From Syntrophales bacterium (GTDB lineage Bacteria > Desulfobacterota > Syntrophia > Syntrophales > UBA2210), in assembly GCA_023230565.1 (NCBI GenBank), contig JALNXD010000015.1:7410-71409 (forward strand): 64,000 nucleotides of DNA. The letters are read 5' to 3'. The notes under the pieces are model-generated. The model was given only the letters and a program-made list of their open reading frames with translations. It was not told where the DNA came from and made no database searches. A program made the translations under genes and the position numbers. Shown here piece after piece: positions 12,115 to 19,011 of the stretch. Every line of letters starts with the position of its first letter. Within the stretch, counting starts at the first letter, position 1.

Positions 12115-12972
12115 CTACTGCGAAAGAATGTCTTCAAGAGCTTTCGGGATATGATTGATGATATCGCGGATCTGGGTCGCCGGTGTCGGTCTTGCATATG
12201 AACCCGCAAGACGGTTGGTTTTCATTGCGATGCGTGCCGCATCTTTTACATCCATTCCCGATGATATCAGTGCGGAAAGTATACCGGTCAAGGTATCCCC
12301 AGTCCCGCCGATCGCTTCCATTGCCTCCTCGACAGGACTATCGACTTCACAGAGTATTCCTTCACCGTCGGAAAGACAATCCTTGCGACCTTTTACCAAA
12401 AGAAAACGGGCTGCATTGCTATTTTTATAGGCCCGAGTGATGAGATCTTCAATCCGGTTTTCCTCATGAAGAATAAAACCCCGGGTATAAAACGGATGAG
12501 GCGCTGCTTCATCCGCCAAAAAGGCGAGCTCTCCGATGTCCGGTGTAAACAGATCATACATTCGGGCATACCCGCTCATTTTGGCCACATACATGAACCC
12601 GGCATCGGCTATCGTAAATGGTTTTCTTTTCATATCGCGTATAACATGCTGCAAGCGCGTATGACAGTGAACAATGGGCTGAAGATAATGAAAAGTGAAG
12701 GTATTAAAATACTCTTCGGAGAATACATCTATCATATATTTATACAGGCTTCTGCTTCCGAGCCCTCGACCGGTATCACCAGCTATATATGCTACGGGGG
12801 CGGGTATTCCAATCACTTCCGACGTTTTTGCCGCCGCACCGATCAAGGCCGCCGTTCCCCTTTCCACAGGAACATATTGATCATCGACAGTCAGGCGGCC
12901 GTCTCTCATCATGGCTCCGCCTCCAACAGTCGGCATGTCCTCTTTCGGTATAGTTCCCATTATTCCGAACAT
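12115..12972 (-). CDS. YjeF_C / NAD(P)H-hydrate dehydratase-like carbohydrate-kinase-fold protein
   Basis: C-terminal GGTGDTLTGILSAL motif, TPDIGELAFL (matching the family TPHxGE motif), and a VKGRKD strand. It is the last gene of the yeeE operon and overlaps the upstream gene by 13 nt. Confidence 0.5.
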   Translation of the reverse strand: MFGIMGTIPKEDMPTVGGGAMMRDGRLTVDDQYVPVERGTAALIGAAAKTSEVIGIPAPVAYIAGDTGRGLGSRSLYKYMIDVFSEEYFNTFTFHYLQPIVHCHTRLQHVIRDMKRKPFTIADAGFMYVAKMSGYARMYDLFTPDIGELAFLADEAAPHPFYTRGFILHEENRIEDLITRAYKNSNAARFLLVKGRKDCLSDGEGILCEVDSPVEEAMEAIGGTGDTLTGILSALISSGMDVKDAARIAMKTNRLAGSYARPTPATQIRDIINHIPKALEDILSQ

Positions 12973-13517
12973 CTGCGCTGTACCTCCTCATATGCCAACT
13001 GCAGTGCATATCCGCAAAGAGTGTGTCCGATCGAACGAGGGCTGGGGGCTTCGTTGAGATTACGCCCTACCATCCGGCTTGCCAGGAAAGGAACATCGGG
13101 GCATCCTCCCCCGGAAATATTTACTATTATTCCTGTTTTTTTCTCAACAGTGAGTTTCATATTGGCCGCTCTGACCATTATATAATCACCAAAATCCTTA
13201 GTATGAAATAAATTGACAGGCTGCAGGAGGGGGCCTGTGACGGGAACAATCCCGATGGGAATTATTCTTTCATTCTCAAGAACTCTGAGGATGTTCAATT
13301 CTTCAATGAGAGGGAATTCTATAACAAGATCGCACCCGGTACGGATCTCGGGCGGAGGTCCCATGACGCGAACCTCCCATCCCCCCTTTCTCAAGATATC
13401 CTCAGCTTGAATTACATCACCGGTATGATCGAACACCATTATTCCCCGGTCGGCGCATTCATTTGCCCCGGGCAAATTCCCCTTTTGCTTCCTTCTGAAT
13501 AAATCCTCTAAAAGCAT
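12960..13517 (-). CDS. DUF3343-like putative S/Se carrier domain protein with extra C-terminal domain
   Basis: The N-half MVFDHTGDVIQAEDILRKGGWEVRVMGPPPEIRTGCDLVIEF matches the DUF3343 pattern (beta-alpha-beta ending in P-x-P-x-x-x-x-x-C-G/D). The family is known as a YedE/YedF neighbour. Confidence 0.45.
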   Translation of the reverse strand: MLLEDLFRRKQKGNLPGANECADRGIMVFDHTGDVIQAEDILRKGGWEVRVMGPPPEIRTGCDLVIEFPLIEELNILRVLENERIIPIGIVPVTGPLLQPVNLFHTKDFGDYIMVRAANMKLTVEKKTGIIVNISGGGCPDVPFLASRMVGRNLNEAPSPRSIGHTLCGYALQLAYEEVQRRCSE

Positions 13518-13520
13518 TGT

Positions 13521-13748
13521 CTACTTCTTCCTGATTTTGACTCTGAAATTTCCTTCCTCTTCAAGGATATCTATCACACTCCAACCCTGACGTGCGGCGG
13601 AACGGACGACATTTTCCTTCGATGTCTCCGTATCTGTCAATATCTCGATTTCGTCCGCTTTCTCAGTTTTTATCGCATGGAGGGTCATCAGGACCGGCTG
13701 GGGACACGAAAGCCCTCTTGCATCGATCTTTGCGCTCATACTTTTCAC
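13521..13748 (-). CDS. TusA/SirA-family sulfurtransferase
   Basis: 75 aa with the canonical LDARGLSCPQPVL (CPxP) active-site motif. Confidence 0.85.
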   Translation of the reverse strand: MKSMSAKIDARGLSCPQPVLMTLHAIKTEKADEIEILTDTETSKENVVRSAARQGWSVIDILEEEGNFRVKIRKK

Positions 13749-13751
13749 TCC

Positions 13752-14837
13752 TTATATGTGTTTTCTTCTCATCGTGAATCCGATGAAAAGGCATACGATC
13801 ATACCTGTGATTACTGCCTCGATACCGTAGATACCGATACCTTCCGGCGAACTTGCCAAACCAAAGTTATGGGCAAAACCCGCCCCGACAACCATTCCAA
13901 TCACGAAGACGGCGGCATCTCCGTCACCTTCCCCCGCAAGAAAGAGCTGGCGTCCCGGACAGCCGCCCGCAAGGGCGAAAGCCAGGCCTGCCAGCGTCAT
14001 GCCGGCAAAATTCCAGAAATGCATGGTGTGAGCTATCGGCTGTTTCTCAAAGCCGGGATGAAACTGACCGAAAATGAGGTTGGTTGCAAAGGCCGCAGCA
14101 ATGAGTGCCACAACTCCCGACAGGAGATGCGCGTGCCGAAAGAGGATGAAATCGCGGAATGCTCCCATAGTGCAAAAACGGCTCCTTTGGGCTAAAAACC
14201 CGACAGCAAGTCCGATAATCAAGGCGATAACGAGCGGCGCATGCATAGACCCCGGACCTTTTACGCTATAGAAGAGAATACCGCTTTTATTCTGGCCGGC
14301 CACCTGAGGAAACGATATGAGAAGTGCCAAAAGACCCGCCATCATGAGCGGCATCATCAAGCCCGCGGTCCGGCCGGTTGTCTGCGTGCGTCCCAGATTG
14401 TATCCTTTCTTCAGAAACAGGGTCCCGATCCAGATTCCGAATATCAGACCGGCAATACCGAGAACGGCATTCCCGTCTCCGCCTGCAAGGCGCAGTGCGG
14501 CGCGCCAGGGACAGCCCAGAAAAACAAGCGCGCCGATCATTGCAAAAACACCTAAAACAAAACGGACAACGGGAGCGGAACCGAGGCGCGGGCGGAACTC
14601 TTTGAAAAGATACGCCGCAATGAGCGATCCCAGGACAAATCCGATAATCTCAGGACGGATATATTGGACGACTGATGCACGATGGAAGCCGACCCCCCCC
14701 GCAATATCACGTTCGAAACAGGCAACGCAGATTCCCATATTTCCAGGGTTGCCTAACTTCTGCAAAAGAGGGGCAAGAACACCGATTACGGCTCCTACAC
14801 CAATAATCCCGTACCTGGTGGCAAAAATATTTTTCAT
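13752..14837 (-). CDS. YeeE/YedE-family sulfur/selenium-compound transporter
   Basis: 361-aa polytopic membrane protein with two internal halves, each carrying a conserved Cys motif (GICVACF; SRFCTMGAF). It lies directly upstream of tusA. Confidence 0.75.
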   Translation of the reverse strand: MKNIFATRYGIIGVGAVIGVLAPLLQKLGNPGNMGICVACFERDIAGGVGFHRASVVQYIRPEIIGFVLGSLIAAYLFKEFRPRLGSAPVVRFVLGVFAMIGALVFLGCPWRAALRLAGGDGNAVLGIAGLIFGIWIGTLFLKKGYNLGRTQTTGRTAGLMMPLMMAGLLALLISFPQVAGQNKSGILFYSVKGPGSMHAPLVIALIIGLAVGFLAQRSRFCTMGAFRDFILFRHAHLLSGVVALIAAAFATNLIFGQFHPGFEKQPIAHTMHFWNFAGMTLAGLAFALAGGCPGRQLFLAGEGDGDAAVFVIGMVVGAGFAHNFGLASSPEGIGIYGIEAVITGMIVCLFIGFTMRRKHI

Positions 14838-15235: not shown

Positions 15236-15937
15236 TTGAAACAACAGAAAGATGGGTGTCGATTGGATCATTCGGTCTTTAAGGAGCTTGCAAAGATCGT
15301 GGTGTTTATCGCGATCTCGGCAACAACATTCTTCCTCTGCGCCGGCCGCGTGAATCTGATAATGGGATGGATCTATATAGGAGCGATCTTGGTCAGCACA
15401 TGTACAGTTTCACTATTGGTGGATCCGGCGTTAATTACCGAGCGCGCAAAGATTGGCAAAGACACCAAGTCATGGGACATAGTACCTGCATTTCTCATAG
15501 GACGGATTGGCCCGGTCGCCATTCTTGTTGTAGCTGGTCTGGACGTGAGGTTTGGATGGTCGCCGCAGGTTTCGCTTGCCCTTCAGATCGTCGCATTTGG
15601 TATAGCCCTTATCGGGATACTCGTAACCGACTGGGCGGTCATTTCAAATAGCTTTTTTTCTGGGGTAGTCAGAATCCAGAAAGATAGAAGCCATACTGTA
15701 GTCGACACCGGACCATATCGCTACGTCCGCCATCCGGGTTACGTCGGATCAATTATGCATTTTCTTGCAGCACCCGTGATTCTCGGTTCCGTGTGGGGCC
15801 TCTTTCCTGCCGGGATCGTGATATGCATTACAATTATACGTACGGTGCTTGAAGACGGGACATTGAGGGAAGAACTTGATGGTTACGCGTACTACGCAGA
15901 GCGAGTTCGCTACCGCCTAATGCCGGGTATCTGGTGA
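15236..15937 (+). CDS. Isoprenylcysteine carboxyl methyltransferase (ICMT/PEMT)-family membrane methyltransferase
   Basis: Multi-TM protein with the DTGPYRYVRHPGYVGS signature of the ICMT/PEMT family. The TTG start is uncertain. Confidence 0.6.
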   Translation: MKQQKDGCRLDHSVFKELAKIVVFIAISATTFFLCAGRVNLIMGWIYIGAILVSTCTVSLLVDPALITERAKIGKDTKSWDIVPAFLIGRIGPVAILVVAGLDVRFGWSPQVSLALQIVAFGIALIGILVTDWAVISNSFFSGVVRIQKDRSHTVVDTGPYRYVRHPGYVGSIMHFLAAPVILGSVWGLFPAGIVICITIIRTVLEDGTLREELDGYAYYAERVRYRLMPGIW

Positions 15938-15957
15938 CTTGCCGCAACTTATGATGC

Positions 15958-16644
15958 TTGTGTTCGCCAAGAAAGAAACTGAGAGGCGGGACCGTGGGTC
16001 TGAAGCCGACCTACGGCCTCTTGCCGGCTGAGGGAATTTTCCCGCTTGCCTATACGATGGATCATGTGGGACCGATGGCACGGACCGTCGAAGATGTCGC
16101 CTGCCTGTTCAAGGCCTTGCCCGATAGCCGCTCGAGGGCCTTGCTCGAAGAGAAATACCGGTCCCGAAATGAGATTGCGAAGGGAAAAATCCGGCGGCTT
16201 GAAGGCGTACGGGCAGGAATACTCAAGGATCATGTCATCAAAGAGTTGTGTCATGAAGCCATATGGAAAGGCTACCAGGAGGTTTTAAAGGCCGCTGAGG
16301 ATGAAGGGGCTAAGATCGTTGAGATTGCATTTCCCGATTTTGACGCGGTCTACACCACGGCTTTGATCCTTACCCTCGCACAGGCGAGTCAAATCCATCG
16401 TACGCGCATGGCGGATCATCCCGGGGGATTCGGTGAGGACGTGCGGTTGTTATTGGAAGCAGGGTATCTCGTTTCCGCCGTCGATTATGTGCAGGCGCAG
16501 AAAGTGCGCGCCAAACTGATTGAAACGGCACTTCTGTTGACGGAGAAGACCGAATGCTGGGTTATGCCGACCACGCCCAATCCGGCGATTCCCGTCGGCG
16601 GAACCGATCTTACCATAGCGCTTAACACTGCGCATTCCAGATAG
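15958..16644 (+). pseudogene. Amidase-signature (GatA-like) enzyme fragment
   Basis: It starts inside the AS-family core at GGTVGLKPTYGLLP...MDHVGPMARTVEDVA. The N-terminal ~1/3, including the Gly/Ser-rich signature, is missing. The C-terminus ends abruptly where methyltransferase homology begins. Confidence 0.65.
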
Positions 16645-17287
16645 GGGCCGGTTCCGGAATCGCCGATTTCGGCTGCGGGCCCGGACTGTATGCGGCGGCG
16701 CTGGCGAAACAGGGCGCTCAAGTGACGGGCATCGATTTTTCGTCGAGATCCATCGCATACGCAAAAGAAGCTGCGGCCCGCGAGCGGTTGAATATCCGTT
16801 ATGTGAATAGGAATTACATGGACTTCGAAACGGAAGACCGTTTCGACCTTGTCCTGATGATTATGTGCGATTTCTGCGCCCTCGGCCCGGCGAACGGAGA
16901 GAGCTTCTGAATAAGTTCCATGGAATTTTGAAACCGGATGGTTCGGTCCTTCTCGATGTATATTCGCTTGCGACATTCGAGCAAAGGGAAGAGGCCGCGA
17001 CATATGAGGCGAACCAGCTCGACGGCTTCTGGTCACCGAATAGCTATTACGGTTTTCTCAACACTTTCAAATATGAACAAGAAAAAGTAGTATCGGACAG
17101 GTACACCATTATCGAGCCCGGGCGCACCAAGCGGATATATAACTGGCTTCAGTATTTTGCGCCCGAAGATCTCGAGAGGGAATTTGAAGAGGCACACCTT
17201 TCCGTCAAGGCAGTAGATTCCGATGTCGCGGGTACGCCCTATGACCGGCAATCCAAGGAATTTGCGGTCATTGCCGGCAAAGTCTGA
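16641..17287 (+). pseudogene. Class I SAM-dependent methyltransferase, 5'-truncated and frameshifted
   Basis: An open frame without a start codon reads GAGSGIADFGCGPGLYAAALAKQGAQVTGIDFS (motif I). The frame is lost near 16890-16905, and the sequence continues as ...RRELLNKFHGILKPDGSVLLDVYS in ORF 16865..17287. Confidence 0.65.
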
Positions 17288-17361
17288 ATCGGCAGAGCGG
17301 GAAGGAAGACCTGGAACTGAATGCCGGCAATAGGGCAAAAAACCGGAAGGAGGGGAGCAAA

Positions 17362-17829
17362 ATGGGAGAGGTTGTTCATACGTCACGGATCAAAATATTC
17401 AAGGAACAGGGGCCGACCCGCAGGGCCATCATCGAAGGGTTTTCGGAACCGGTCTATTACGGCGTCCACGGCGGTATCAAGAAATTTTATAAAGTGGAGC
17501 CGGAAAAGGAGCACGCGGCGACCCTCGATCATATCGTCGCCGCGGTGGGCGGGTGAATGATGGGGACACTGGCCACGGTGCTGGCCGGAAAAAAGATTCC
17601 CACGCCGCAGCCCGATTACTGGGCCGATGTGGAAGGGGACATAGAAAACGTGGAGGGAATCCTCAAGATCGCCGCCATTCGTGTTCGCTACCACCTGAGA
17701 ATCACCGAAGACAAGGTTCGAGATGCGAAAGAATGCTTCCTGAACTACATCCAGTTTTGCCCCGCCGCCCAGACGGTGATCGGCTGCATCAAGATCGAAG
17801 ACGACCTGTGCTTTGAAGAAAAAAATTGA
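17362..17829 (+). CDS. OsmC/Ohr-family peroxiredoxin-like selenoprotein (in-frame UGA 17554..17556 read as Sec)
   Basis: ORFs 17362..17556 and 17557..17829 are in the same frame, separated only by TGA. The joined sequence reads ...LDHIVAAVGG-U-MMGTLATVLAGKK...VEGD...IRVRYHL...YIQFCPAAQTV. This matches the OsmC pattern LLxALxxC....tl and the second Cys in CP. A GGAGG RBS precedes ATG 17362. Confidence 0.7.
17569..17588 (+). promoter_or_regulatory. SECIS-like hairpin 12 nt after the UGA
   Basis: CUGGCCA-CGGUGC-UGGCCGG forms a 7-bp stem (one G-U pair) with a 6-nt loop containing GGU. Spacing and loop content resemble the bacterial SECIS upper stem-loop. Confidence 0.55.
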
Positions 17830-17914
17830 TGGAATTACTTGGAGGAGAGTATGCCTCTTGTGATAACCACGTGAACAGCACAGAAAGAGACTTCCCGGGA
17901 GAAAGGAGTCATCG

Positions 17915-18238
17915 ATGAATGTGTTAAAATAAGCCCTGGCAATCATCCTAATCCTTACCGGCATAATCTTCGTAAAGGATACCTACTCGGCCGGCCAGTT
18001 CGTTTCCAACTACTTCGCGGCGGGCGACTTTGCAAAAGGCGTGTTTGCGGCAGGTAATTTTTCGGCGGGCGTTTTCGCCGCCGGCACTTTCGCGATAGGG
18101 GCCTTCTCCGCCGGGATTTTCTCCGTCGGCATATTCTCTATCGGATTCTTTTCAATTGGGTTGTTCGGGCTCGGTTTCTTTGTGATAGCACTATACAAAA
18201 AAATCTTCTCCTCCAATGAGATACAGTGGCGCCCCTAA
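17915..18238 (+). pseudogene. Small hydrophobic (A/S)xGxF pentapeptide-repeat membrane protein with in-frame TAA at codon 6
   Basis: GAAAGGAG RBS, then ATG 17915, MNVLK, TAA (17930..17932), then the same frame continues as ALAIILILTGIIFVKD...FAAGDFAKGVFAAGNFSAGVFAAGTFAIGAFSAGIFSVGIFSIGFFSIGLFGLGFF. A single AAA-to-TAA change would explain the stop. Confidence 0.45.
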
Positions 18239-19011
18239 CCGACAAGGCCGGAGCGAGTCTTCGGCTCCAGAGGATCTTCGTTCTGATTGGAGTCCAATCG
18301 TCTTCGTGGCAGCCTGGATGCGAAAGAAAACGTGCAGCCGCTCTACCGGACGCGATATAGCTGCATGACTTCGTCAGCCATATGAACCCCGCACTATCGG
18401 TAGCCATACCCGCTCATAATGAGTAAAAGTACATCGGGAGATACATAGAAAGCATATTCGATTCGGCGCGCCTGTCGATGAGTCGCTTGTCAGCGTTGAT
18501 GACATGGACTTTGCGTTGCGCCTCAAGGCGTACGGCCGGGCCTGCGGAAAACGGTTCGGGACGATCAGGCACGCCGACACGACCTCTTGTCGGAAATTCG
18601 ATCAATTCGGCGACTGGTACCTCTTCCGCAACCCGCGCCTCGTAAGGGAAATCTTCGAGGGCACTAACAGGCGAGCGGCCGACAGCTTTTACTACGACAT
18701 CGAGCGGTGAGATGACAAAACTGCCGAAGTCAGCCGGCAAAGAATCGGCAATCAGATTTATGATTAAATAAAATAAAGTAATTGCAAAAAAGAGCTCTTT
18801 TTGTCATAAATGAGTCCATCCTGCCTAAAAGTTCGGACCCTCGCCGGTAAAGAGGGATAGGCTGTAAGATCATAATGGTGTCCGAACCTCACATACCTCG
18901 ACGACATCGGAAATATAAGAAGCCTTGTGAATTGTCGGCTAATGAGAAACCCGTCATCTCTTAAAGCAGTTGTATATCCAAAAGCGCTGCGAATAGAAAG
19001 GAGAAGGAATA

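What the first reader, a model, noticed from the sequence alone, without database searches (positions are those of the whole stretch)
17362..17829. OsmC/Ohr-like peroxiredoxin with UGA (selenocysteine) at the first redox Cys position, plus a SECIS-like hairpin
Two ORFs of 64 and 90 aa are in the same frame, separated only by TGA (17554..17556). The joined 155-aa sequence is a complete OsmC-fold protein: ...HIVAAVGG-[UGA]-MMGTLATVLAGKK ... VEGD ... IRVRYHL ... YIQFCPAAQTV. The UGA falls exactly where OsmC/Ohr proteins have their first conserved Cys (LLxALxxC), and the second conserved Cys (CP) is retained. Twelve nt after the UGA lies a 7-bp stem CUGGCCA/UGGCCGG with a GGU-containing loop, matching the geometry of bacterial SECIS upper stem-loops. 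OsmC-like selenoproteins have been reported from comparative and metagenomic surveys. A YeeE/TusA/DUF3343-like operon, a family set linked to selenium handling, lies 2.5 kb away.
Basis: partly seen in the sequence, partly recalled or inferred. Interest (0 to 1): 0.6.

Follow-up and report, generated by a model that had tools for sequence, protein, structure and literature searches.

The report
Selenocysteine OsmC-type peroxidase gene with SECIS
This is one gene for a small antioxidant-type (OsmC-fold) enzyme whose catalytic cysteine is replaced by selenocysteine, encoded by an internal UGA and a conserved RNA hairpin; the kind is already known, but this widespread clade is missed by curated models and is routinely mis-annotated as two fragments.

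Summary

- **One gene.** Window 17362..17829 (+) is a single 155-codon gene with an in-frame TGA at 17554-17556.
- **OsmC fold.** The joined protein passes Pfam OsmC (35.6 bits, cutoff 27.5). A homologue's AlphaFold model matches only OsmC/Ohr crystal structures.
- **Catalytic position.** The UGA column aligns with E. coli OsmC Cys59, and the retained Cys133 aligns with Cys125.
- **Conservation.** 124 related loci from Syntrophales and other Thermodesulfobacteriota carry TGA at this exact codon. Eight relatives carry TGC. More distant relatives are mostly Cys/Cys at the two columns.
- **Both halves are coding.** Both sides of the TGA are under purifying selection. TGA also ends 42 of 119 of these genes, so it is a normal stop there.
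- **SECIS hairpin.** The 7-bp hairpin (17569-17588) starts 12 nt after the UGA. It is intact in 107 of 124 Sec forms, shows compensatory changes, keeps a loop G at a synonymous site, and holds the six most constrained synonymous sites of the gene. It is mismatched or absent in 7 of 8 Cys forms.

**Not shown:** selA, selB, selC and selD (none in the window), selenium incorporation, and enzyme activity.

**Side claim:** the neighbouring YedE/TusA/DUF3343 cluster is real and selenium-type, but its proximity is not conserved.

**Novelty:** OsmC-like selenoproteins have been known since 2005. This clade fails the curated NCBIfam model (13.9 bits, cutoff 95). I rate it a new member of a known kind.

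The parts
17347..17353 (+). Shine-Dalgarno-like AAGGAGG, 8 nt upstream of the start codon
   Evidence: Read directly from the sequence. An SD-like motif lies within 20 nt of the start codon in 125 of 128 homologous loci.
17362..17829 (+). Single 155-codon gene for an OsmC-fold selenoprotein (64 codons + UGA/Sec65 + 90 codons, ending at a terminal TGA)
   Evidence: Same-frame translation. Pfam OsmC scores 35.6 bits against a cutoff of 27.5. Full-length Cys homologues of 153-159 aa exist. Purifying selection acts on both halves: position 1+2 against position 3 divergence is 0.104/0.548 for the N-terminal half and 0.234/0.533 for the C-terminal half. Many cluster representatives end at profile position 64 or start at 66, which is a gene-caller artefact.
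17554..17556 (+). In-frame UGA read as selenocysteine (residue 65), at the position of the peroxidatic Cys of OsmC/Ohr
   Evidence: TGA occupies the identical codon in 124 related loci, and TGC in 8. Database proteins with 'W' here have TGA in their DNA. The column aligns to E. coli OsmC Cys59 and to the first Cys of Ohr 6d9n and OsmC 1ukk.
17569..17588 (+). SECIS-like hairpin: 7-bp stem (17569-17575 paired with 17582-17588), 6-nt loop CGGUGC (17576-17581), starting 12 nt after the UGA
   Evidence: Local MFE is -11.5 kcal/mol. 99.4% of cells pair. C-G changes to U-A in 4 sequences and all single changes keep pairing. RNAalifold predicts the same stem. One locus (L119) has a G-C to C-G flip, and many loci have U16-A35. 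107 of 124 Sec forms have 7/7 pairs. The second loop nucleotide is G in 123 of 124. The hairpin is mismatched or absent in 7 of 8 Cys forms. The six lowest synonymous entropies of the gene lie in codons 70-76.
17758..17760 (+). TGC codon for Cys133 (C-P-A-A-Q motif), the presumed resolving cysteine
   Evidence: Present in all 81 Sec-form sequences and nearly invariant in A1/A2. It aligns to E. coli OsmC Cys125 and to the C-P of Ohr and OsmC structures.
17827..17829 (+). Terminal TGA stop codon of the same gene
   Evidence: Read directly from the sequence. Among Sec-form homologues the terminal stops are TAA 48, TGA 42 and TAG 29. TGA is therefore an ordinary stop in these genomes, and only the internal one is recoded.

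Best explanation
Window 17362..17829 encodes one 155-residue selenoprotein of the OsmC/Ohr superfamily.

**How the UGA is read (inferred mechanism).** During translation, the UGA at 17554-17556 is read as selenocysteine rather than stop. The mRNA forms a 7-bp hairpin 12 nt downstream (17569-17588) with a conserved G in its loop. I infer that this hairpin acts as a bacterial SECIS element, recruiting SelB-GTP-Sec-tRNA(Sec) to the ribosome.

**What the protein does (inferred by homology).** Sec65 sits at the N-terminal end of the long helix, where OsmC and Ohr carry their peroxidatic cysteine. Cys133 (C-P motif) sits where they carry the resolving cysteine.
- The selenolate would attack a hydroperoxide (or another oxidised substrate) to give a selenenic acid.
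- That would condense with Cys133 to form a selenenylsulfide.
- A cellular dithiol would then reduce it. The identity of this reductant is unknown.

**Shown here:**
- a single conserved reading frame across the UGA;
- the Sec/Cys correspondence at the catalytic column;
- the OsmC fold;
- selection acting on the hairpin.

**Inferred, not shown:** SelB-dependent Sec insertion, peroxidase chemistry, and the reductant.

**Evolution (inferred).** The Sec clade is nested within Cys/Cys relatives. A few close relatives have TGC with a decaying hairpin. This suggests Cys changed to Sec once, followed by occasional reversion to Cys.
For: **Gene structure**
- The frame, RBS and internal TGA are as described.

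**OsmC membership and catalytic columns**
- Pfam OsmC is above its gathering score.
- The AF2 model of the 77%-identical homologue P0001 has pLDDT 84.9, and its top 50 PDB matches are all OsmC/Ohr.
- U65 and C133 align to E. coli OsmC Cys59 and Cys125 and to the two Cys of Ohr 6d9n and OsmC 1ukk.

**Conservation of the UGA**
- All 80 GTDB species loci retrieved have TGA at this column.
- 42 of 44 metagenome loci from a scan seeded with Cys forms also have TGA.
- Homologues listed with 'W' have TGA in their DNA, and those checked with 'C' have TGC.
- 35 of 48 distant relatives are Cys/Cys at the two columns.

**Both halves are coding, and TGA is otherwise a stop**
- Substitutions fall mainly on third positions on both sides of the TGA.
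- TGA is the ordinary terminator in 42 of 119 of these genes.

**Hairpin**
- 99.4% of cells pair, with C-G to U-A covariation, and RNAalifold agrees.
- 107 of 124 Sec forms keep 7/7 pairs, and the loop G is conserved in 123 of 124.
- It is disrupted in 7 of 8 Cys forms.
- Synonymous-site entropy is 0.39 against 1.65 bits, p = 1e-5.

**Selenium use by the organism and its lineage**
- The window encodes TIGR04112 seleno_YedE at 487 bits (cutoff 200). That family was reported to occur only in Se-utilising organisms (PMC5322559).
- Syntrophus and Syntrophobacter carry 19 and 31 selenoproteins including SelD (PMC1794560).
Against: - No selA, selB or selD homologue and no tRNA(Sec) lies in the 64-kb window or in 1.49 Mb of related flanks. 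The machinery in this genome is therefore unverified.
- On the single sequence the hairpin is not thermodynamically exceptional (z = +0.48), and the 62-nt MFE structure does not use it.
- Rfam gives no match, even at permissive thresholds.
- Covariation is limited because the stem is so conserved. Only 1 of 7 pairs shows double changes in the GTDB set. A few Sec forms carry a mismatch (15 have 6/7 pairs, and L078 needs a shifted register).
- The Cys-form control has only 8 members, 5 of them from one clade.
- Sequence similarity to characterised OsmC and Ohr is weak: PDB profile E = 0.0035, hhalign probability 33%.
- A catalytic Arg/Glu equivalent was not established.
- There is no conserved operon partner to indicate a substrate or reductant.
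Confidence: 0.88

Rival explanations
1. Two naturally separate small genes, encoding a 64-aa and a 90-aa protein, that abut by coincidence. This is how public annotation treats them.
For: Gene callers list about 88-aa C-terminal halves and N-terminal pieces as separate proteins. ATG-ATG follows the TGA directly, giving a plausible start codon.
Against: - The two halves are always in the same frame with zero spacing and no indels in 124 loci.
- Cys-form homologues are single uninterrupted ORFs that also carry the Met-Met after the Cys.
- Neither half alone forms the OsmC fold. The model needs residues 3-33 together with 55-152.
- The SD-like motif was checked, and found, only upstream of the first ATG.
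Confidence: 0.03
2. A pseudogene or a sequencing or assembly error that created a premature stop in an ordinary Cys-containing OsmC gene.
For: A single-base change from TGC or TGT gives TGA. Only one window was examined at the first stage.
Against: - The same TGA occurs in 124 independent assemblies from many species.
- Purifying selection is strong downstream of it as well: position 1+2 divergence 0.234 against position 3 0.533.
- The conserved hairpin has no explanation under decay.
Confidence: 0.01
3. The UGA is recoded, but not as selenocysteine. It could be read as Trp or Gly (genetic code 4 or 25) or by near-cognate readthrough as Trp or Cys. The hairpin would then stimulate readthrough rather than bind SelB.
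For: Some pipelines translated the codon as W. Sec machinery was not found in the DNA available. No experiment shows selenium in the protein.
Against: - TGA terminates this very gene in the window, and terminates 42 of 119 homologues. The genomes therefore do not use code 4 or 25.
- The homologous residue is Cys, the catalytic one. It is never a genuine Trp codon in any homologue whose DNA was checked.
- The host lineage is selenoprotein-rich, and the window carries selenium-type YedE.
Confidence: 0.06
4. It is a genuine selenoprotein, but its function is not hydroperoxide reduction. It could act in selenium or sulfur trafficking, or as a thiol-disulfide oxidoreductase linked to the nearby YedE/YedF/DUF3343 cluster.
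For: Selenium-type YedE, a TusA/YedF-like protein and a DUF3343 protein lie 2.5-4.6 kb upstream. Many OsmC-superfamily members have no proven peroxidase activity, and similarity to characterised OsmC and Ohr is weak.
Against: - The proximity is not conserved in any of the 80 related loci, and no gene is consistently adjacent.
- The cluster is on the opposite strand, with unrelated genes in between.
- The two-Cys architecture and the fold match the peroxidase members.
Confidence: 0.2

Closest known systems
'OsmC-like protein' selenoprotein family from the Sargasso Sea survey (Zhang, Fomenko and Gladyshev 2005, PMC1088965), listed in the 2026 review PMC13188914 as PF02566, motif UxxT, representative MCS5647933.1
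   Same: It has the same Pfam domain (PF02566). It is a predicted thiol-type redox selenoprotein with a Sec/Cys pair and a bacterial SECIS hairpin downstream of the UGA, and it was found by comparative analysis rather than experiment.
   Different: - The published family is described as COG1765 with motif UxxT. Here the motif is U-M-M-G-T (UxxxT).
- Here the clade is Syntrophales and other Thermodesulfobacteriota from peat, fen, groundwater and sediment assemblies, not surface-ocean bacteria.
- I could not obtain a published member to check whether the Sec columns coincide.
NCBIfam NF041052 'OsmC_like_Se', OsmC-related (seleno)protein
   Same: It is an OsmC-superfamily model built to name selenoprotein and Cys members. 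The weak match covers the same domain region (residues 53-149 against profile positions 41-140 of 144).
   Different: The window protein scores 13.9 bits against a cutoff of 95. Cys-form homologues score 16-28 bits. The best of 44 wider relatives reaches E = 9.8e-7. The window protein is not a member.
E. coli OsmC (PDB 1qwi, 1nye) and Ohr (such as 6d9n, 1zb9, 1n2f), the two-Cys thiol-dependent hydroperoxide reductases
   Same: They share the fold: all top 50 Foldseek matches are OsmC/Ohr. They share a peroxidatic residue at the start of the long helix and a resolving Cys in a C-P motif, with U65 = Cys59 and C133 = Cys125 of E. coli OsmC.
   Different: - Sec replaces Cys at the first position.
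- Identity is only about 12-17%.
- The window protein gives no match at all to NCBIfam TIGR03562 (OsmC) or TIGR03561 (Ohr), and its relatives score far below those cutoffs.
- It has a distinctive conserved N-terminal region (MGEVVHTSRI...YYGVHGGIKKFYK).
- Catalytic Arg/Glu equivalents were not established.
E. coli fdhF-type bacterial SECIS element
   Same: It is a hairpin inside the coding sequence just 3' of the UGA, with G (and usually U) in a small apical loop. From my own knowledge, a minimal fdhF upper stem-loop placed about 11 nt after the UGA suffices for Sec insertion. Here the spacing is 12 nt.
   Different: The sequence differs. No bulged U is evident. SelB binding is untested. There is no Rfam model match.

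Membership tests
Bacterial selenoprotein gene (UGA decoded as Sec through SECIS and SelB) | In-frame UGA conserved at the same codon in orthologues, with coding-type conservation on both sides | tested here: met
   TGA is at the identical codon in 124 loci. Position 1+2 against position 3 divergence is 0.104/0.548 upstream and 0.234/0.533 downstream.
Bacterial selenoprotein gene (UGA decoded as Sec through SECIS and SelB) | Homologues with Cys aligned to the UGA (a Sec/Cys pair) | tested here: met
   Eight close homologues have TGC in their DNA. 35 of 48 distant full-length relatives are Cys/Cys at the two columns.
Bacterial selenoprotein gene (UGA decoded as Sec through SECIS and SelB) | Stem-loop shortly downstream of the UGA with a small apical loop containing G (bacterial SECIS as described in PMC1088965) | tested here: met
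   A 7-bp stem starts 12 nt after the UGA, with a 6-nt loop whose second nucleotide is G in 123 of 124 Sec forms. 99.4% of cells pair, with compensatory changes. Synonymous sites are suppressed, p = 1e-5. bSECISearch itself could not be run.
Bacterial selenoprotein gene (UGA decoded as Sec through SECIS and SelB) | selA, selB, selC (tRNA-Sec) and selD present in the same genome | tested here: inconclusive
   ARAGORN finds no tRNA in the window. tblastn with E. coli SelA, SelB and SelD finds nothing in the window or in 1.49 Mb of related flanks. Indirect support comes from seleno_YedE in the window and a selenoprotein-rich lineage.
Bacterial selenoprotein gene (UGA decoded as Sec through SECIS and SelB) | Selenium actually incorporated at the UGA position | not testable with these tools
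   This needs 75Se labelling or mass spectrometry.
OsmC/Ohr superfamily (Pfam PF02566) | Pfam HMM score above the gathering threshold | tested here: met
   35.6 bits against 27.5, covering residues 56-146.
OsmC/Ohr superfamily (Pfam PF02566) | OsmC fold | tested here: met
   The AF2 model of P0001 (77% identical) has pLDDT 84.9 and pTM 0.81. All top 50 Foldseek PDB matches are OsmC/Ohr, with probability 1.00 and TM about 0.5-0.6.
OsmC/Ohr superfamily (Pfam PF02566) | Two conserved redox cysteines (peroxidatic on the helix, resolving in the C-P motif) | tested here: met
   U65 and C133 align to E. coli OsmC Cys59 and Cys125 and to the two Cys of 6d9n and 1ukk. The alignments are statistically weak: E = 4.5e-4 and 3.5e-3.
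OsmC/Ohr superfamily (Pfam PF02566) | Thiol-dependent hydroperoxide reductase activity, with catalytic Arg/Glu | not testable with these tools
   Conserved Arg residues (R9, R14, R20) and Glu residues (E91, E95) exist. Their spatial relation to residue 65 could not be measured, and activity needs an enzyme assay.
NCBIfam NF041052 OsmC_like_Se | Whole-protein score at or above the curated cutoff of 95 bits | tested here: not met
   The window protein scores 13.9 bits. Homologues score 16-28 bits. The best of 44 wider relatives has E = 9.8e-7.
NCBIfam TIGR03562 (OsmC) and TIGR03561 (Ohr) peroxiredoxin subfamilies | Score at or above the curated cutoff (85.8 bits for TIGR03562) | tested here: not met
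   The window protein gives no hit. Homologues score 17-20 bits on TIGR03562. The best E-values among relatives are 1.1e-8 and 5.2e-5.
Published 'OsmC-like protein' selenoprotein family (PMC1088965, PMC13188914) | PF02566 domain with the Sec-related motif UxxT | tested here: inconclusive
   The domain criterion is met. The literal motif is not: the sequence is U-M-M-G-T, so Thr is at +4. No published member sequence was available to compare Sec columns.

The most novel reading that the evidence does not exclude
This may be a selenoprotein subfamily that has not been catalogued. It would be a Sec-dominant branch of the OsmC superfamily (at least 124 Sec loci against 8 Cys loci in the clade sampled here). 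It is spread across more than 80 species-level genomes of syntrophic and sulfate-reducing Thermodesulfobacteriota. It has its own highly conserved SECIS. No curated model recognises it, so public databases systematically split it into two 'hypothetical' fragments. If so, it would add to the catalogue of about 119 prokaryotic selenoprotein families and subfamilies. It also offers an unusually clean natural series (Cys to Sec, then back to Cys with a decaying SECIS) for studying how SECIS elements arise and decay inside coding sequence.
Probability: 0.45. Interest if true: 0.45.

Novelty: new member of a known kind. Interest (0 to 1): 0.35.

Why it matters
**Annotation.** More than a hundred species-level genomes and many metagenome contigs list this gene as an 88-aa 'hypothetical protein' plus an unannotated or separately called N-terminal piece, or translate the codon as Trp. 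A model for this clade would correct all of these. It would also add a member to the selenoproteomes of Syntrophales and related anaerobes, where selenium supply shapes syntrophic metabolism.

**Biology.** The data show that the catalytic cysteine of an OsmC-type redox enzyme has been replaced almost completely by selenocysteine in one lineage.

**SECIS evolution.** Conservation of a SECIS overlapping eight codons can be read directly from synonymous sites. The few Cys revertants show the hairpin decaying.

None of this changes the understanding of Sec decoding. The kind of protein and the mechanism are both established.

Tried and rejected
- **Single-sequence thermodynamics.** The 62-nt fold downstream of the UGA is no better than shuffles (z = +0.48) and picks a different structure. 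I set this aside as a criterion, because short GC-rich hairpins in GC-rich coding sequence are not distinguishable this way. I used comparative data instead.
- **Rfam.** No match at gathering thresholds over the whole window, and none at E <= 10 on 17500-17660.
- **PDB by single sequence.** phmmer found nothing. A profile was needed.
- **Operon and synteny clues.** tblastn of all window ORFs against the 80 loci found only the gene itself and its antisense shadow. Clustering of neighbours across 122 loci gave no partner in more than 18 loci. I rejected a functional link to YedE/TusA/DUF3343.
- **Other selenoprotein genes in the window.** A scan for same-frame ORF pairs split by TGA gave no other convincing candidate.
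- **Sec machinery.** ARAGORN found no tRNA. tblastn with E. coli SelA, SelB and SelD against the window and all loci found nothing.
- **Promoter and terminator scan of 16800-18300.** Nothing on the + strand exceeded chance.
- **Genetic code 4 or 25, and the pseudogene or split-gene readings.** Considered and rejected (see the rival explanations).
Full report
**1. The observation**

- An ATG at 17362, preceded by AAGGAGG at 17347-17353, opens 64 codons.
- These end at TGA 17554-17556.
- Ninety further codons follow in the same frame, ending at a second TGA at 17827-17829.
- The hairpin is present: 12 nt after the UGA come CUGGCCA (17569-17575), the loop CGGUGC (17576-17581) and UGGCCGG (17582-17588).

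Taken alone, the hairpin is not statistically remarkable. A 62-nt fold is no better than shuffles (z = +0.48) and does not choose this stem. A 36-nt local fold does give it, at -11.5 kcal/mol. The case therefore had to be made by comparison with related sequences.

**2. What the protein is**

With Cys in place of the stop, the 155-residue product passes Pfam OsmC (35.6 bits, gathering score 27.5, residues 56-146). Single-sequence search of the PDB finds nothing.

A profile of 19 full-length homologues aligns the UGA column to the first Cys, and the C-P motif to the second Cys, of Ohr 6d9n and OsmC 1ukk. hhalign against E. coli OsmC puts U65 on Cys59 and C133 on Cys125 (E = 4.5e-4, probability only 33% because the template is a single sequence).

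An AlphaFold model of P0001, a Cys-containing homologue 77% identical to the window protein, is confident (pLDDT 84.9, pTM 0.81). Its top 50 Foldseek matches in the PDB are all OsmC or Ohr structures.

**3. Is the UGA read through?**

*Protein databases.* A database search returned about 20 full-length homologues and hundreds of proteins of about 88 aa that start just after the UGA. In the full-length ones, the UGA column holds C or W. At the DNA level, a 'W' homologue has TGA (a gene caller applied another code), and a 'C' homologue has TGC.

*Genomes.* A scan of one genome per GTDB species found at least 400 relatives. All of the best 80 loci have TGA at this codon. They come from Syntrophales, Smithellaceae, Syntrophobacteraceae, Desulfomonilia and a few bins with other labels.

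*Metagenomes.* A metagenome scan seeded with the Cys clade still returned 42 TGA and 2 TGC.

*Totals.* In all there are 124 Sec-form and 8 Cys-form loci.

*Coding signal.* Compared with the window, divergence at codon positions 1+2 against position 3 is 0.104 against 0.548 upstream of the TGA. Downstream it is 0.234 against 0.533. Both parts are therefore coding and under purifying selection, the upstream part even more strongly.

*TGA as a stop.* Terminal stops of these genes are TAA 48, TGA 42 and TAG 29, and the window gene itself ends in TGA. TGA is an ordinary stop in these organisms, which rules out genetic codes 4 and 25.

*Mis-annotation signature.* The exhaustive representative search shows it plainly. 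Dozens of cluster representatives end exactly at profile position 64, and dozens begin at 66.

*Wider family.* Among more distant full-length relatives (23-53% identity), 35 of 48 carry Cys at both columns, within the same C-x-x-G-T ... C-P framework. The Sec clade is thus nested in a Cys-using redox subfamily.

**4. The hairpin**

*Pairing.* Across 77 distinct sequences, 99.4% of the 7 x 77 cells form standard pairs. Sliding the partner by 1-3 columns drops this to 55% or less.

*Substitutions.* Every one-sided change preserves pairing: G-C to G-U nine times, A-U to G-U nineteen times, U-G to U-A twice, and C-G to U-G once. The basal pair switches C-G to U-A in four sequences. RNAalifold independently predicts the same stem. 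In the metagenome set, U16-A35 recurs in several amino-acid contexts, and L119 shows a G18-C33 to C18-G33 flip.

*Integrity.* Of 124 Sec forms, 107 keep 7/7 pairs and 121 keep the upper four pairs. The mean hairpin energy is -10.2 kcal/mol. The second loop nucleotide is G in 123 of 124.

*Synonymous sites.* That loop G is the third base of a Thr codon (ACG in 57 of 58 Thr codons at that position in the GTDB set), so it is constrained at a synonymous site. Third-position entropy among four- and six-fold codons averages 0.39 bits in codons 69-76, against 1.65 (sd 0.26) in the other 67 such codons. The six lowest values in the whole gene all lie in codons 70-76 (Mann-Whitney p = 1e-5). The same amino acids elsewhere in the same gene vary freely, so codon usage does not explain the pattern.

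*Natural control.* Seven of the eight Cys forms have at least one mismatch. Four of those mismatches fall in core pairs that almost never vary among Sec forms. The three most divergent Cys forms have no hairpin at all, with energies of +8.9, +6.4 and -0.1 kcal/mol.

*Caveats.*
- The stem was proposed from one of these sequences.
- Covariation is limited by the very high conservation.
- The Cys control set is small, with five of its eight members from one clade.
- L078 needs a shifted register.

[quoted passage not shown] From my own knowledge, a spacing of about 11 nt for a minimal fdhF hairpin is close to the 12 nt seen here.

**5. Does the organism use selenium?**

The window has no tRNA gene, no SelA, SelB or SelD homologue and no other convincing TGA-interrupted gene. 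The Sec machinery is therefore unverified.

Indirect evidence is positive.
- The 361-aa protein at 13752-14837 (-) is TIGR04112 'YedE family putative selenium transporter' at 487 bits against a cutoff of 200.
- It is followed by a TusA/YedF-like protein and a PF11823 Se/S-carrier (DUF3343) protein.
- YedE was reported as exclusive to Se-utilising organisms, and DUF3343 as widespread in them (PMC5322559).
- Syntrophus aciditrophicus and Syntrophobacter fumaroxidans were reported to carry 19 and 31 selenoproteins, including SelD (PMC1794560).

**6. Context and function**

None of the window's neighbours recurs next to this gene in the 80 GTDB loci. No gene is adjacent in more than 18 of 122 loci.

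The mechanism is inferred by homology with OsmC and Ohr. The Sec65 selenolate would attack a peroxide. The resulting selenenic acid would form a selenenylsulfide with Cys133. A dithiol would then reduce it. Neither the substrate nor the reductant can be named from these data.

**7. Comparison with what is known**

OsmC-like selenoproteins have been known since the Sargasso Sea survey (three sequences, COG1765, motif UxxT). They are listed once in the 2026 catalogue of 119 families and subfamilies (PF02566, UxxT).

NCBI curates a model for them, NF041052 OsmC_like_Se.
- The window protein scores 13.9 bits against its cutoff of 95.
- Its Cys-form homologues score 16-28 bits.
- The best of 44 wider relatives reaches only E = 9.8e-7.
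- OsmC proper (TIGR03562) and Ohr (TIGR03561) are equally remote.

The motif here is U-M-M-G-T. NCBI-sourced members seen in the search are all 87-88-aa fragments, and those that carry a name are called 'hypothetical protein'. The 2006 selenoproteome lists for Syntrophus and Syntrophobacter include no OsmC-type entry.

I could not obtain a published family member to compare Sec columns. The accurate statement is therefore that this works like the known OsmC-like selenoproteins and shares their Pfam domain, but it fails the curated family model and appears to be an uncurated clade.

**8. Verdict**

- Confidence is about 0.88 that this is a Sec-encoding OsmC-fold gene with a functional SECIS.
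- Confidence is about 0.6 that its chemistry is peroxide reduction.

It is a new member of a known kind. It is useful for annotation and as a clear example of SECIS constraint and decay, but it would not surprise a specialist. Interest: 0.35.

Noticed in passing
window 12960-14837 (- strand): 13752-14837, 13521-13748, 12960-13517; also 12115-12972: A selenium-type gene cluster. It comprises YedE (TIGR04112, 487 bits against a cutoff of 200), a 75-aa TusA/YedF-like protein (TIGR03527, 52.5 bits, below its cutoff of 110) and a 185-aa PF11823 Se/S-carrier (DUF3343) protein. These are followed by a weak Carb_kinase/YjeF-C-like protein. The model for YedF (TIGR03527) is 194 positions long, but here its N-terminal part matches a separate 75-aa TusA-domain protein, next to a separate DUF3343 protein.
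   Followed up: partly
window 17383-17964 (- strand): A 193-aa antisense ORF overlaps the whole OsmC gene. It gives tblastn hits in all 80 related loci at about 43% identity. This is the shadow of the conserved sense-strand gene, not an independent gene.
   Followed up: partly
proteins P0002, P0003, P0004, P0010, P0012, P0013, P0016, P0024, P0025 and locus L081:344-346: Public metagenome gene calls (JGI, ENA, Logan) list full-length versions of this protein with Trp at the Sec position. The one locus checked (L081, encoding P0002) has TGA in its DNA. The 'W' is therefore an artefact of calling the contig under an alternative genetic code. It could mislead alignments of Sec/Cys columns.
   Followed up: partly
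L082:9363-12025, L133:365-1956 and L134:123-1272: In the Cys-form clade (P0005, P0009, P0011), the gene is preceded by a MarC-family membrane protein gene. In L082 and L133, a second, ordinary 132-aa OsmC gene lies downstream on the opposite strand. This local context was not seen around the Sec forms.
   Followed up: no
window 15236-16644 (+ strand): A PEMT/ICMT-type methyltransferase ORF (15236-15937) is followed by a 228-aa ORF that matches only positions 163-385 of the 445-position Amidase model. The second may be a truncated or frameshifted amidase gene.
   Followed up: no
L126:1058-1512: One metagenome copy (41% identity by tblastn) keeps the TGA, but a one-base shift just after the hairpin loop breaks the frame and the stem (3 of 7 pairs). 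This is probably a degraded copy or an assembly error.
   Followed up: no
L078:4085-4144: One Sec-form locus has GCG instead of GCC in both arms. This breaks two pairs of the standard hairpin but allows an alternative 6-bp stem shifted by 4 nt, with a GGGU loop. It may be a case of SECIS register drift.
   Followed up: partly
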